Part shown: positions 12,341 through 15,300 of the stretch, piece by piece
Numbering within the stretch: position 1 is the first letter of the stretch
Layout: each line of letters begins with the position of its first letter
NCBI RefSeq assembly: GCF_009914755.1
Contig: NC_060941.1
Length of the DNA stretch: 64,000 bases
Source: the human T2T-CHM13v2.0 reference genome, Homo sapiens
Strand: one strand, 5' to 3'
Translations under genes and position numbers: made by a program
Notes under the pieces: generated by a model
What the model was told of the DNA's origin: nothing
Seen by the model: only the letters and a program-made list of their open reading frames with translations
The model's database searches: none

Positions 12341-15300
12341 GTCTGGGGCAGGGCAGGGCACAGGGTGGGAGTGAGGCAGAGGGGCTTTGGGGCTGAGTGG
12401 CAGCCCCTTCACCCTGATAGAAATTGCCCTTCATCCCAGCCGACTCTCCTGGATGCCTGGGGTTGGAGAAGGGTGCCTCCAACCCCCTGACCCATGCCCC
12501 GGAAAGACAGAAATTCATCCAGAGCAGAATCAGCCCAATGCCAGGTGCTTTCATGTGTTATTCATGGCATCTTACTAATGGCCCGTGAGATAGCTGTTGT
12601 TGTCCTCCCCCTATCGCAGGTAAGAAACTCGGGATCCAGAGGGCTTCATTCATTAACTTGCCCAAGCTCTCCCAAGTAGTAGCAGAGCCGAGATTCAAAC
12701 CTGGGTTTGCCTGATGTCAAAGCCTGTCCTCTTTGCCATGCCTGTGAGGAGCATGCCCTGGGCCTCTGACAGCCTGCAGCTCCCCCAGGAAACCCTCTCC
12801 CCACACTGTGGGGACACTCTCTGGCCATCTCTGCATTGGGCCCACATTAACCGAGTCTCCTTCTCCTTCCCCTTTCCTCAGGAGAGCTACGTCCAGGCAG
12901 CTTCAGATGCCTCCAGAGGTGAGCCCCTCCCACCTCCAAGCTTGCCCTGTCACATTCTCCTCTGCATGGCCTGGGTTTTAATCTAGTTACCATTTTGGGG
13001 GAAGAAACAGTGAGTATGGAGTGACTTCAGAAGGGAGAGAACAAGCTGGAGAAGGGACTGGAAACATATCCTGTGAAGAGCAGTTGAGGGAAGCTGCAAT
13101 ATTTAGCCCAGAAAAGGCAACTCCCAGGTGGGTCAGAGAGCTGCCTTCAAATTCCTAAAAGGCTGTCACAAGGAAGAAGGATTGGATTTCATCTCAAGGG
13201 TTCCAGGGCTGGGCAATGTTACAGGGAACACATTTCAGGCAGGGAGAGGGAAATGTTTTCTGATTAAGCTGCCTGGCTGTCTTTTGTTGTTGTTGTTGTT
13301 TGTTTTGTTTTGTTTTTTGGGTTTTGTTTTGTTTTGTTTTTTTGAGATGGAGTCTTGCTCTGTTGCCCAGACTGGAGTGCAATGGCATGATCTCAACTCA
13401 CTGCAACCTCTGCCTCCCGGATTCAAGCAATTCTCCTGTCTCAGCCTTCCAAGTAGCCGGGATTATAGGCGTCTGCCACCACGCCCAGCTAATTTTTGTA
13501 TTTTTAGTAGAGACAAGGTTTCGCCATGTTGGCCAGGCTGGTCTCGAACTCCTGACCTTGTGATCTGCCTACCTTGGCCTCCCAAAGTGTTGGGATTACA
13601 GGCATCAGCCACTGCGCCAGGCCCGCCTGGCTGTCTTGAGGAGGAGGGAGCTCCCCACTGCTGGAGGTATGCAAGCACCGATTGGTTAAGCCCCTGGCAG
13701 GGATCCTGTAGCAGAGACTGGAGCGTTAAGAATTGGATGACATGACCCCCAAGCTCTCTTCCCACCTTGAAACTCTGTGGATCTTACTGTCTCCCTAACA
13801 AAGGGGAGGTAAGGGCCAGAGAGTCCACATGGATGGATAATCTCCAAGGAAGACACAGAAACGAAGCAAGAGCATGCTTCCTGGAGTTGGGGCAGTGGGG
13901 CTGGTGGTCTGTAGTCTGGCTCCCTAAGGTCCTCATCCCCCGTCTCCCCTCGATAGCCATCGACATCAACTCCTCGGACATCAAGGCTCTGTATCGGCGA
14001 TGCCAGGCACTGGAGCACCTGGGGAAGCTGGACCAGGCCTTCAAAGACGTGCAGCGTTGTGCCACCCTCGAGCCACGGAACCAGAACTTCCAGGAGATGC
14101 TGAGGAGACTCAACACCAGCATTCAGGAGAAGGTGAGCTGGGCCTCTTCCCACAACCCTTGGCTGCCCAGCCCCTCTCTTCATTCCTAGTAGGAATGGGT
14201 TAGGGAGGTGGGTCATCAGGGCAGGGCTAGCCCTACCTCCACACTCTGAGATAGAGACAGCAAGTGGCATGGGCAGGCTGCACAGAACAGCTAAGCAGGT
14301 GCTTCTATCTGTGATGCTTGTTTGAGGGCACAAGCCAGCCAAGGCTAGAACACAGGTCTTTTAAATTCCAGATGGGGCCAGGCACAGTGGCTCATGCTTA
14401 TAATCCCAATACTTTGGGAGGCTGAGGCGGGCAGATCACTTGAGGTCAAGTAGTTTGAGACCAGCCTGGACAACATGGGGAAACCCCGTCTCTACTAAAA
14501 ATACAAAAAATAGCCGGATGTGGTGGGGGCGCCTGTAATCCCAGCTACTCAAGAGGCTGAGGCAGGATAATTGTTTGAACCTGGGAGGTGGAGGTTGCAG
14601 TGAGCTGAGATCATGTGCCATTGCACTTCAGCCTGGGCGACAGAGCAAGACTCTGTCTCTCCCACCCCCGCCCCCCCCAAAAAAATTCCAGATGGAGGCT
14701 TAGAAATATTATTATAACTTAGTATGTCTGCAACATGATCTCTCTCTCTTTCTATGTATTATAAAATACATGGGAATTGAAGACATCGATGAGGGATAGA
14801 GGAGAGCCAGGCCCCATTAGGAGCATGATTGCTTTTTTTGAGACAGATTCTTGCTTTGTTGCCCAGGCTGGAGTACAGTGGCATGATCTCAGCTCCTCAC
14901 TCCAACCTCTTTCTCCTGGGTTTAAGCAATTCTTGTGCCTCAGCCTCCCAAGTACCTAGGATTACAGACGTGCACCACCACACCTGGCTAATTTTTGTAT
15001 TTTTCCGTACGCCACATTTCCCGCGCCCCACCGCGGGGCGGGGATTCGGCGCTGGGCTCTTCCCTGTTCACTCGCCATTACTGAGGGAATCCTGGTTAGT
15101 TTCTTTTCCTCCGCTGACAAATATGCTTAAATTCAGCGGGTCGCCACGTCTGATCTGAGGTCGCGGGCCTCGATCAGAAGGACTTGGGCCCCACACGAGC
15201 GGCGCCGGGGAGTGGGTCTTCCGTACGCCACATTTCCCGCGCCCCACCGCGGGGCGGGGATTCTAATTTTTGTATTTTTGATAGAGATGGGGTTTCACCA

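What the first reader, a model, noticed from the sequence alone, without database searches (positions are those of the whole stretch)
14988..15279. Circularly permuted, longer-than-unit 28S rRNA retrocopy: possible fossil of rolling-circle reverse transcription of a circular rRNA fragment
Seen: read in rRNA sense (minus strand, numbering on this copy), the insert is 28S nt 119-216 (15263 to 15166) joined directly to nt 1-163 (15165 to 15003). The junction ...GATCGAGGCC|CGCGACCTCAG lands on the mature 28S 5' end (1-nt ambiguity) with no ITS2 sequence. The 45-bp block TTCCGTACGCCACATTTCCCGCGCCCCACCGCGGGGCGGGGATTC occurs identically at 15003-15047 and 15219-15263 (period 216), so the insert is about 1.2 turns of a 216-nt unit. 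It has no poly(A). It is flanked by a 16-17-bp TSD (CTAATTTTTGTATTTTT, 14988-15004 and 15263-15279) at a TTTTT/G site, and the target's terminal TT overlaps the AA of rRNA ...GGAA. Known: TSDs at T-tract/purine sites mark L1 target-primed reverse transcription, and L1 RT lacks RNase H, so a template can be re-read. Inference: RT primed internally at nt ~163, copied to nt 1, crossed a 216-to-1 junction and strand-displaced its own cDNA for 45 nt. That requires either a covalently closed 28S(1-216) circle in the germline or an end-to-end template jump onto the 3' end of such a fragment. A simple tandem duplication of a linear copy cannot give this order.
Basis: partly seen in the sequence, partly recalled or inferred. 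Interest (0 to 1): 0.88.

Follow-up and report, generated by a model that had tools for sequence, protein, structure and literature searches.

The report
Permuted 28S rRNA retrocopy in Alu
A 261-base copy of the start of human 28S ribosomal RNA, pasted into an Alu by the LINE-1 machinery with its two halves in swapped order and a 45-base overlap, has a sister on chromosome 8 with the same breakpoints, so a repeatable copying quirk explains it better than a one-off RNA circle.

Summary
Read on the minus strand, window 15003-15263 is 28S nt 119-216 joined directly to nt 1-163. It has an exact 45-bp overlap, a 17-bp target-site duplication at a TTTTT/G site in an Alu, no ITS2 and no poly(A). The junction 30-mer is unique in the genome.

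It belongs to a known class: LINE-1-mobilised "tailless" retropseudogenes, primed inside an RNA at a single-stranded A-containing site.

New here: a second, independent locus on chr8 (inside an L1, own 14-bp duplication) is also permuted, as nt 146-214 + nt 144-163. It shares the 3' end at nt 163 and the acceptor point at nt 214-217, but its donor point differs (nt ~144, not nt 1).

Shared acceptor with different donors fits a reverse-transcriptase jump onto a discrete 3' end at about C215-C217, just 3' of a conserved hairpin. It fits one fixed 216-nt circle less well. A ligated or circular template is not excluded (about 0.2-0.3).

Verdict: a real feature, a new variant of a known kind, of moderate interest.

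The parts
14833..15386 (-). Host Alu (minus orientation, T-run at 14833-14839, 5'-truncated near 15386), split by the insert
   Evidence: Rfam Metazoa_SRP hits 14838-14988 (-) and 15282-15391 (-). Sequence read. 16 other Alus in the window are continuous across GGCTAATTTTTGTATTTTT|AGTAGAGA.
14988..15004 (.). Target-site duplication, copy next to the rRNA 3' end (CTAATTTTTGTATTTTT). Its 3'-terminal T-run is the inferred primer for cDNA synthesis on the + strand. The last TT (15003-15004) overlaps the complement of rRNA A162-A163.
   Evidence: 17/17 identity with 15263-15279. The intact site reads TTTTT/GATAGAG at 15275-15286.
15003..15165 (-). 3' piece of the insert: 28S nt 1-163, inferred to be copied first. 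Its far end is the mature 28S 5' end.
   Evidence: 98% to rDNA over 163 nt. Alignment. Differences at 47, 89, 136, 148. Position +1 of 28S per PMC7153239.
15165..15166 (-). Non-colinear joint, 28S nt 216(217) | nt 1(2), with one ambiguous C, no ITS2 and no filler bases
   Evidence: The 30-mer across the joint is unique in the genome.
15166..15263 (-). 5' piece of the insert: 28S nt 119-216, inferred to be copied second
   Evidence: 96% to rDNA over 99 nt. Alignment. Differences at 136, 148, 169, 189.
15003..15047 (-). Overlap copy 1 (28S nt 119-163), part of the 3' piece
   Evidence: 45/45 identical to 15219-15263, spacing 216. Carries T136 and A148.
15219..15263 (-). Overlap copy 2 (28S nt 119-163), part of the 5' piece
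   Evidence: The 29-mers carrying T136 or A148 occur nowhere else in the genome, so in none of the 219 rDNA copies.
15263..15279 (.). Target-site duplication, copy next to the insert's 5' end. Its first base (15263) is shared with the complement of rRNA G119.

Best explanation
This is a LINE-1-made, poly(A)-less ("tailless") retrocopy of a 5' fragment of mature 28S rRNA. Its permuted, longer-than-unit form comes from a template jump by the reverse transcriptase, not from a covalent circle.

Steps:
1. L1 endonuclease nicked the + strand of an Alu at TATTTTT/GATAG.
2. The T-run paired with A162-A163 in a single-stranded stretch of a 28S fragment whose 3' end lay at about C215-C217. That leaves a 3' flap of roughly 54 nt.
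3. cDNA ran from nt 163 to the mature 5' end (nt 1).
4. The enzyme then moved its cDNA end onto a free 3' end at nt 216/217. This was most likely the flap of the same molecule, which a predicted end-to-end panhandle (nt 6-17 with 204-214) holds nearby. A second molecule is possible.
5. It copied nt 216 to 164, then displaced 45 nt of its own first cDNA down to nt 119.
6. The break was sealed with 1-nt microhomology, leaving a 17-bp duplication.

The chr8 locus is the same process. There the jump was triggered at nt ~144, at the entry to the GC-rich stem of the nt 114-157 hairpin, instead of at nt 1.

Shown: the anatomy, the RNA origin, the L1-type site and duplication, and the recurrence of the breakpoints. 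Inferred: the order of copying, the free 3' end at nt 215-217, same-molecule transfer, and the pause.
For: - L1 hallmarks: an exact 17-bp duplication and a TTTTT/G site.
- RNA origin: the joint lies at mature 28S +1 with no ITS2.
- Known class: tailless retropseudogenes are primed at internal single-stranded A-containing sites with recurrent truncation points (PMC5322556, abstract and passages).
- Priming site accessibility: A162-A165 are predicted unpaired (P 0.95-0.99) in the 1-216 fragment. In the Rfam consensus structure nt 157-160 are unpaired and A163 is an insert.
- Recurrence: chr8 locus L015 has nt 146-214 + one T + nt 144-163 between 14-bp duplications AAAACTGGATATTC. It has the same 3' end and the same acceptor within 2 nt. 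Its flanks are unrelated to the window locus.
- Specificity of the breakpoints: scans built to exclude rDNA find only these two loci for "nt 163 followed by non-rRNA" (plus one chance-level X hit against controls of 2 and 3). The same holds for "nt 214 followed by non-rRNA" (plus a weak chr10 fragment).
- Acceptor structure: it sits at the 3' foot of a consensus hairpin (G199-C215) followed by unaligned CCAG. An exonuclease-trimmed or RNase-cut end would plausibly lie there.
- chr8 donor and stop: both chr8 passes end at nt 144 and nt 146, which is 2-4 nt into the 11-bp GC stem of the predicted hairpin (pairs listed).
- Panhandle: nt 6-17 x 204-214 has pair probabilities 0.90-1.00 for fragments ending at nt 216-230 (MFE and centroid).
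- Precedent: Dong et al. themselves warn that structured linear RNAs with close ends can mimic circle-derived pseudogenes (PMC4897178, most of the text read).
Against: - No RNA data were examined, so the free 3' end at nt 215-217 is inferred only from the genomic copies.
- Both joints are clean, with no untemplated bases. Both can be read as C|G (C217|G2 and C215|G144). That is also what RNase A-type cleavage followed by RtcB-type ligation would give.
- Both inserts stop 18-45 nt after passing their own start. A true circle predicts this equally well.
- The fold of nt 1-216 is not unusually stable (z = -1.62; 13 of 200 shuffles fold as well).
- The panhandle weakens for a fragment ending at nt 260 and vanishes at 300 nt or more. 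It does not explain the chr8 donor site. Predicted folds also change with the chosen 5' boundary.
- The recurrence rests on n = 2 strong loci.
- My scans tolerate at most 3 mismatches, so older copies are missed.
- One further reverse-strand match of a 29-mer was counted but not listed, and I could not inspect it.
- T136 is shared by both overlap copies. That fits one molecule, but also a then-common allele, or a circle.
Confidence: 0.55

Rival explanations
1. Rolling-circle reverse transcription of a covalently closed 28S fragment. RNase cuts leave a 5'-OH and a 2',3'-cyclic phosphate, and an RtcB-type ligase closes the fragment into a circle (nt 1/2-216/217 here; nt 144-215 at chr8). L1 primes at A162-A163, goes once round, and stalls 18-45 nt into its own cDNA-RNA hybrid.
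For: - Both inserts are about 1.2 turns: 261/216 and 90/72.
- Both joints are clean and readable as C|G.
- Both overlap copies share T136 and A148, as expected for one template molecule.
- RtcB is reported to join U6 to other RNAs before L1 retrotransposition (PMC6789731; only the search listing and the start of the abstract were seen).
- circRNA-derived pseudogenes are in print (PMC4897178).
Against: - It needs two different circles sharing one end, so three discrete cut sites plus ligation.
- At chr8 the second pass would end 2-3 nt from the ligation joint by coincidence. I estimate that at roughly 5% for a 72-nt circle (my inference).
- The mature 28S 5' end carries a 5'-phosphate (recalled, not from a call), which is not an RtcB substrate unless C1 is first removed.
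- My literature searches listed circular rRNA intermediates only for archaea and no circular human 28S 5' fragment. Those searches cover open-access text only.
Confidence: 0.2
2. A linear ligated or concatenated RNA. Two 28S fragments (…-216/217 and 1/2-…) were joined end to end by an RNA ligase before reverse transcription, as proposed for U6/L1 chimeras. The joined RNA was then copied colinearly from an internal priming site.
For: - Clean C|G joints.
- RNA ligation is named alongside template switching as a route to 28S/LINE-1 chimeras (bioRxiv 10.1101/2025.02.02.635956, passages).
- The RtcB precedent (PMC6789731, listing only).
Against: - It does not explain why both loci stop shortly after re-reading their own start region.
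- It does not explain why the partner is the same small rRNA segment in 2 of 2 cases, rather than any abundant RNA.
- It has the same 5'-phosphate problem at nt 1 (recalled).
Confidence: 0.1
3. Not an RT-level event at all: either a later DNA rearrangement of a simple colinear copy, a DNA-templated repair patch copied from rDNA, or an assembly error.
For: The shared T136 and A148 in both overlap copies could mean that the duplication came after the mutations.
Against: - The 216|1 joint is direct, with no duplication copy between the halves.
- The 17-bp duplications abut nt 163 and nt 119 exactly.
- The joint is at the mature RNA end without ITS2, which a DNA template would carry.
- An unrelated locus has the same breakpoints.
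- A148 is also present in both chr8 pieces, so it came from the template.
Confidence: 0.05

Closest known systems
Tailless retropseudogenes (Schmitz et al. 2004, recalled; Noll et al. 2015, PMC5322556, abstract and passages read)
   Same: L1-dependent. Flanked by target-site duplications. No oligo(A). 3' end at an internal, single-stranded, A-containing position of an abundant structured RNA, with a few bases of target complementarity. Truncation points recur. 28S rRNA was among the RNAs screened.
   Different: The described members are single colinear pieces. This one is two pieces of the same RNA in swapped order, overlapping by 45 nt, inside one pair of duplications.
Chimeric retrogenes made by L1 template switching or RNA ligation (U6/L1 and others; 28S/LINE-1 chimeras, n = 18, bioRxiv 10.1101/2025.02.02.635956, passages read; PMC6789731, listing only)
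   Same: Two RNA-derived parts in the same orientation, fused without filler and flanked by a single pair of duplications. The 5' part ends at a discrete RNA position.
   Different: Both parts come from the same RNA and overlap. The 3' part is not L1/Alu/mRNA and has no poly(A). The published 28S/L1 chimeras cluster around 28S nt 3636-4115, not the 5' end.
circRNA-derived pseudogenes (Dong et al. 2016, PMC4897178, most of the text read)
   Same: A non-colinear joint, few or no terminal A residues, and an inferred retrocopy of a template that is circular or behaves as one.
   Different: Those joints are back-splice junctions of known exonic circRNAs. Here there are no splice sites, the source is rRNA, no circle is documented, and a sister locus has a different joint. 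The authors' own caveat about structured linear RNAs with close ends fits this case.
SINE28 (Longo et al. 2015, PMC4994717, abstract and passages read)
   Same: A 28S-derived, L1-mobilised insertion in primates.
   Different: SINE28 derives from the 3' end of 28S (about nt 4800-5034), has an A-rich tail, and is reported as Pol III transcribed. This insert comes from the 5' end and has no tail.

Membership tests
L1 target-primed retrocopy | Flanking target-site duplication of about 7-20 bp | tested here: met
   17/17 bp at 14988-15004 and 15263-15279. The chr8 sister has 14/14 bp.
L1 target-primed retrocopy | Nick at a T-run/purine site (consensus 5'-TTTT/AA; the consensus is recalled and also quoted in PMC5322556) | tested here: met
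   The + strand reads TATTTTT/GATAG. Other Alus read TTTTT/AGTAG at the same place. The chr8 site reads TTTT/C, which is less typical.
L1 target-primed retrocopy | Template is a processed RNA, not DNA | tested here: met
   The joint falls on mature 28S +1 and no ITS2 is present.
L1 target-primed retrocopy | 3' poly(A) tract | tested here: not met
   ...ACGGAA runs straight into the duplication and no extra A residues are present. This places it in the tailless subclass.
Tailless retropseudogene | 3' end at an internal single-stranded, A-containing site with target complementarity; recurrent end points | tested here: met
   A162-A165 are predicted unpaired at P 0.95-0.99. Nt 157-160 are unpaired in the Rfam consensus. 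There is a 2-nt AA/TT overlap. The same end is seen at chr8. The structure evidence is prediction only.
Tailless retropseudogene | Single colinear piece of the source RNA | tested here: not met
   Two pieces, nt 119-216 then nt 1-163.
Chimeric retrogene (template-switch type) | Two RNA copies, same orientation, direct fusion, one pair of duplications | tested here: met
Chimeric retrogene (template-switch type) | Parts derive from different RNAs, and the 3' part carries poly(A) | tested here: not met
   Both parts are 28S and there is no poly(A).
circRNA-derived pseudogene | Non-colinear joint in the genomic copy | tested here: met
   216|1 joint.
circRNA-derived pseudogene | The joint matches the junction of a demonstrated circular RNA | not testable with these tools
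   No RNA-seq was available. Searches listed no human 28S 5'-fragment circle. The chr8 sister has a different joint, 214/215|143/144.
SINE28 | [quoted passage not shown] | tested here: not met
   The insert maps to nt 1-216 and has no tail. The definition comes from PMC4994717.

The most novel reading that the evidence does not exclude
Small covalently closed circles of 28S 5'-domain RNA (nt 1/2-216/217 and nt 144-215) existed in the primate germline. They would have been made by RNase cleavage at C^G / C^A steps and RtcB-type ligation. LINE-1 copied them by rolling-circle reverse transcription on at least two occasions. The two loci would then be fossils of a class of rRNA-derived circular RNAs, and evidence that ORF2p can go round a circle in vivo.
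Probability: 0.2. Interest if true: 0.75.

Novelty: new variant of a known kind. Interest (0 to 1): 0.5.

Why it matters
L1-made retrocopies of rRNA, tailless retrocopies and two-part chimeras are all in print. This element is therefore not a new kind of thing.

What I did not find in print (searches; open-access text only) is a self-chimera: one RNA copied for more than one unit length, with the same breakpoints at two unrelated loci.

Recurrence turns a curiosity into a small natural experiment. It points to a discrete 28S 5' fragment ending at C215-C217. It also shows that ORF2p can, in vivo, return to the 3' end of the template it is copying, or go round a ligated one.

That gives a concrete test between template jumping and RNA ligation or circularisation, which is still argued over for U6/L1 chimeras. 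It also gives a search image for more such copies: same-strand, non-colinear rRNA hits inside one duplication.

There is no sign of a cellular function. The insert is an intronic fossil in UNC45B.

Tried and rejected
- **Tandem duplication or later DNA rearrangement.** Rejected: the 216|1 joint is direct, the duplications are exact, and an unrelated locus has the same breakpoints.
- **DNA-templated patch from rDNA.** Rejected: no ITS2 at the joint.
- **SINE28.** Rejected: wrong end of 28S and no tail.
- **Twin priming.** Rejected by reasoning: it gives inverted pieces, not same-orientation pieces.
- **Are T136 or A148 live rDNA variants?** The 29-mers carrying them occur only at this locus, and all listed rDNA copies carry C148/G169. 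I recall mouse 28S having A at both 148 and 169. That would make them ancestral states, but it is recall, not a call.
- **Other mammals' 28S among viral contigs.** A search with the A148/A169 29-mer gave 0 hits.
- **More loci.** The scans found only chr17 and chr8, plus three lesser items. One is a weak 29-nt chr10 fragment (nt 189-217, 3 mismatches; flank similarity 14/17, reached by 5 of 500 shuffles) whose nick site is not L1-like. One is a chance-level X hit (27 nt at 81%). One is an unlisted reverse-strand match that I could not reach.
- **chr8 host L1 continuity.** A window search for its contiguous flank gave 0 matches, so the empty chr8 site rests on my reading of the L1 sequence.
- **Empty-site search.** A search of the window with the reconstructed empty site of this Alu gave 0 matches. 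A shorter Alu motif then settled the point.
- **Relative age of the two loci.** Not resolvable: 3-4 private changes in 261 nt against 3-4 in 90 nt.
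Full report
**1. What is there**

On the + strand, window 14988-15279 reads as follows:
- CTAATTTTTGTATTTTT;
- then 261 nt of GC-rich sequence;
- then CTAATTTTTGTATTTTT again.

The two 17-mers are identical. Inside the insert, a 45-mer occurs twice without a mismatch, at 15003-15047 and 15219-15263, with spacing 216.

A whole-genome search with the insert, read on the minus strand, hits the rDNA arrays in two overlapping pieces:
- query 99-261 matches C13:7567094-7567256 (98%);
- query 1-99 matches C13:7567212-7567310 (96%).

I took C13:7567094 (L002 position 1501) as 28S nt 1. 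On that numbering the insert is nt 119-216(217) followed by nt 1-163.

The three-way alignment shows the joint ...GATCGAGGCC|CGCGACCTCAG. In the rDNA unit, CGCGACC is preceded by ITS2 (...CCTCCGAGA), and none of that is present in the insert.

Two sources place CGCGACC... at the mature 5' end. PMC7153239 describes 5' fragments of 28S "that begin at position +1" and gives CGCGACCUCAGAUCAGACGU (passages). The Rfam eukaryotic LSU model starts 2 nt further in.

The host is an Alu in minus orientation (Rfam SRP hits on both sides). Sixteen other Alus in the window run uninterrupted through GGCTAATTTTTGTATTTTT-AGTAGAGA. The insert therefore sits at a TTTTT/purine step and is flanked by a true target-site duplication.

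The 30-mer across the joint is unique in 3.1 Gb at up to 3 mismatches.

**2. Direction of synthesis and class**

The strand antisense to rRNA is the + strand. It is continuous with the left duplication copy, which ends in TTTTT. That is what target-primed reverse transcription from an L1 endonuclease nick predicts:
- the T-run primes;
- its last two T pair with A162-A163 of ...GUACGGAA;
- cDNA grows rightwards.

So nt 163 to nt 1 was copied first and nt 216 to nt 119 second. This order is an inference from the geometry.

There is no poly(A).

That combination defines the published "tailless retropseudogenes" (PMC5322556, abstract and passages):
- they are L1-dependent and flanked by duplications;
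- the target shows complementarity to the 3' end of the element;
- 28S was among the RNAs screened.

28S retropseudogenes and 28S/LINE-1 chimeras (n = 18, mostly from nt 3636-4115) are also in print (bioRxiv 10.1101/2025.02.02.635956, passages). SINE28 derives from the other end of 28S and has a tail (PMC4994717).

**3. A second locus with the same breakpoints**

A 20-mer of nt 144-163 has 219 forward matches, which are the rDNA copies, and 4 reverse matches. One reverse match is on chr8.

Read in rRNA sense, that locus (L015) is:
...GGTACTGAG-AAAACTGGATATTC-[28S nt 146-214]-T-[28S nt 144-163]-AAAACTGGATATTC-ATATGCAG...
It lies inside an old L1.

It is again two same-sense pieces of 28S in swapped order, with an 18-nt overlap inside one 14-bp duplication. 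Compared with the window locus:
- the 3' end is again ...GTACGGAA (nt 163);
- the upstream piece again ends at ...GATCGAGG(C), nt 214/215, against 216/217 in the window;
- the donor point differs, at nt 143/144 instead of nt 1.

The flanks of the two loci share nothing except the rRNA parts, so the two events are independent.

Scans designed to leave out rDNA gave these results:
- "nt 144-163 followed by non-rRNA": chr17 and chr8, plus one 2-mismatch X hit at chance level (controls 2 and 3). That hit is only 27 nt at 81%.
- "nt 193-215 followed by non-rRNA": chr17 and chr8 at 0 mismatches, plus a chr10 fragment at 3 mismatches.
- "non-ITS2 followed by 28S nt 1-27": chr17 only.
- The 24-mer carrying A148/A169: chr17 and chr8 only, at up to 1 mismatch.

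Limits of these scans:
- At most 3 mismatches were allowed, so old copies are invisible.
- One further reverse-strand match of a 29-mer was counted but not listed. It does not reappear, so it is either modern-rDNA-like or more diverged. I could not inspect it.

**4. Substitutions**

Against CHM13 rDNA the window insert differs at six positions: 47 A>T, 89 C>T, 136 C>T, 148 C>A, 169 G>A and 189 G>T.

Positions 136 and 148 lie in the overlap and are changed identically in both copies. A148 is also present in both chr8 pieces, and A169 in the chr8 upstream piece. No rDNA copy has these states. All rDNA rows listed read C148/G169.

So A148 and A169 were in the templates and have since been replaced in the arrays. 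I recall that mouse 28S has A at both positions, but this is unchecked. It means both insertions predate a sweep through all 219 rDNA copies.

T136 is a CpG change. There are 24 CpGs in nt 1-216, 8 of them in the overlap, and only one other clear decay (nt 89) in this insert. From those counts I estimate the chance of the same CpG change arising independently in both copies at below about 4% (my inference). T136 therefore also came from the template.

That fits one RNA molecule read twice. It fits equally well two molecules carrying a then-common allele. It does not separate the models.

**5. Why the same breakpoints**

In the Rfam consensus structure, as aligned to the human rDNA:
- nt 113-156 form a hairpin;
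- U157-G160 are unpaired;
- A163 is an inserted base;
- G161-C172 pair with a strand near nt 265-274, which a fragment ending near nt 217 would lack;
- G199-C215 form a small hairpin, followed by four unaligned bases, C216 C217 A218 G219.

The acceptor points (214/215 and 216/217) thus lie at the 3' foot of a hairpin, at the edge of a single-stranded CCAG. A nuclease cut, or an exonuclease stop, would plausibly leave a 3' end there.

In a fold of nt 1-216, A162-A165 are unpaired with P 0.95-0.99.

The same fold predicts an 11-bp panhandle between nt 6-17 and nt 204-214:
- pair probabilities are 0.90-1.00;
- it holds for fragments ending at nt 216-230;
- it weakens at nt 260 and is gone at 300 nt or more.

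In the intact ribosome nt 1-20 pair with 5.8S (recalled), so the panhandle could exist only in a free fragment.

Cautions on the structure arguments:
- The overall fold is not exceptional (z = -1.62).
- Other 5' boundaries give other folds. For example, nt 159-166 pair with nt 199-207 when the fragment starts at nt 113 or nt 157.

Both points are 2-4 nt into the 11-bp GC stem of the nt 114-157 hairpin (pairs listed). That looks like a pause site.

**6. Mechanism**

My best reading (confidence 0.55) has four elements:
- The template was a free 28S 5' fragment ending at about C215-C217.
- It was primed internally at A162-A163, leaving a 3' flap of roughly 54 nt.
- At run-off (nt 1, this locus) or at a pause (nt ~144, chr8), ORF2p transferred the cDNA end onto that 3' end.
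- It then copied the flap and ran 45 nt (18 nt at chr8) into the region it had already copied, before the break was sealed.

A same-molecule transfer would explain why the partner is the adjoining rRNA segment in 2 of 2 cases, rather than any abundant RNA. It would also explain why both second passes stop soon after re-entering the hybrid. This is inference; a second molecule is not excluded.

The first rival is a covalent circle (0.2). It predicts the same product and the same short overlap, and the clean joints can be read as C|G, as RNase cleavage plus RtcB-type ligation would give. Against it:
- it needs two circles with one shared end;
- it needs a coincidence at chr8, where the stop falls 2-3 nt from the joint;
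- it needs a way round the 5'-phosphate of mature 28S (recalled).

The other rivals are:
- a linear ligation product (0.1);
- DNA-level events or an assembly artefact (0.05), argued against in sections 1 and 3.

Dong et al. (PMC4897178) describe circRNA-derived pseudogenes. [quoted passage not shown]

**7. Novelty and verdict**

The class is known. The variant is a self-chimera of one RNA, longer than one unit, with recurrent breakpoints. I did not find it in my searches. Those searches cover open-access full text only. The supplementary tables of PMC5322556 and of the 2025 preprint, which may list these loci, were not seen.

There is no evidence of function.

- Interest: 0.5.
- Most novel reading not excluded: germline rRNA-fragment circles copied by L1 (probability 0.2).

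Noticed in passing
L015 1402-1517 (G000:C8:136891701-136891816, minus strand): A second permuted 28S retrocopy inside an old L1: nt 146-214 + T + nt 144-163 between 14-bp duplications AAAACTGGATATTC. It shares A148 and A169 with the window insert and has three further CpG G>A changes.
   Followed up: yes
L024 about 1496-1527 (G000:C10:90760986-90761015, plus strand): A 29-nt fragment matching 28S nt 189-217 at 90%, ending at GGCCC and followed by non-rRNA. The flanks share 14 of 17 bases (5 of 500 shuffles reach this). It may be a third copy with an end at nt 217, but the nick site is not L1-like.
   Followed up: partly
window 14979-15273: The RefSeq 'enhancer' listed in the hub's table coincides almost exactly with the rRNA insert plus one duplication copy. 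A CpG-rich rRNA fragment could attract reads that really come from rDNA, so the call may be a mapping effect. Not tested.
   Followed up: no
rDNA arrays, e.g. L002 1648 and 1669 (28S nt 148 and 169): Every rDNA copy listed carries C148/G169, while all four retrocopied pieces carry A148 and both upstream pieces A169. The arrays have fixed two changes in this expansion segment since the insertions, a small datable trace of concerted evolution.
   Followed up: partly
unknown place in G000, reverse strand: One search counted 3 reverse-strand matches of the 29-mer (nt 147-175) at up to 2 mismatches, but listed only chr8 and chr17. The third, on C13 or a later contig and apparently outside the forward-oriented arrays, was not seen.
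   Followed up: no
L002 1501-1716 (28S nt 1-216): A free 5' fragment of 28S is predicted to close on itself through nt 6-17 pairing with nt 204-214 (pair probabilities 0.90-1.00). That is the same 5' stretch that pairs with 5.8S in the ribosome (recalled). The helix disappears in fragments of 300 nt or more.
   Followed up: partly
L020 about 1494-1520 (G000:C23:10492364-10492387): An X-chromosome 24-mer resembling nt 144-163 with 2 mismatches. It extends to only 27 nt at 81%, which is chance level given the controls.
   Followed up: yes
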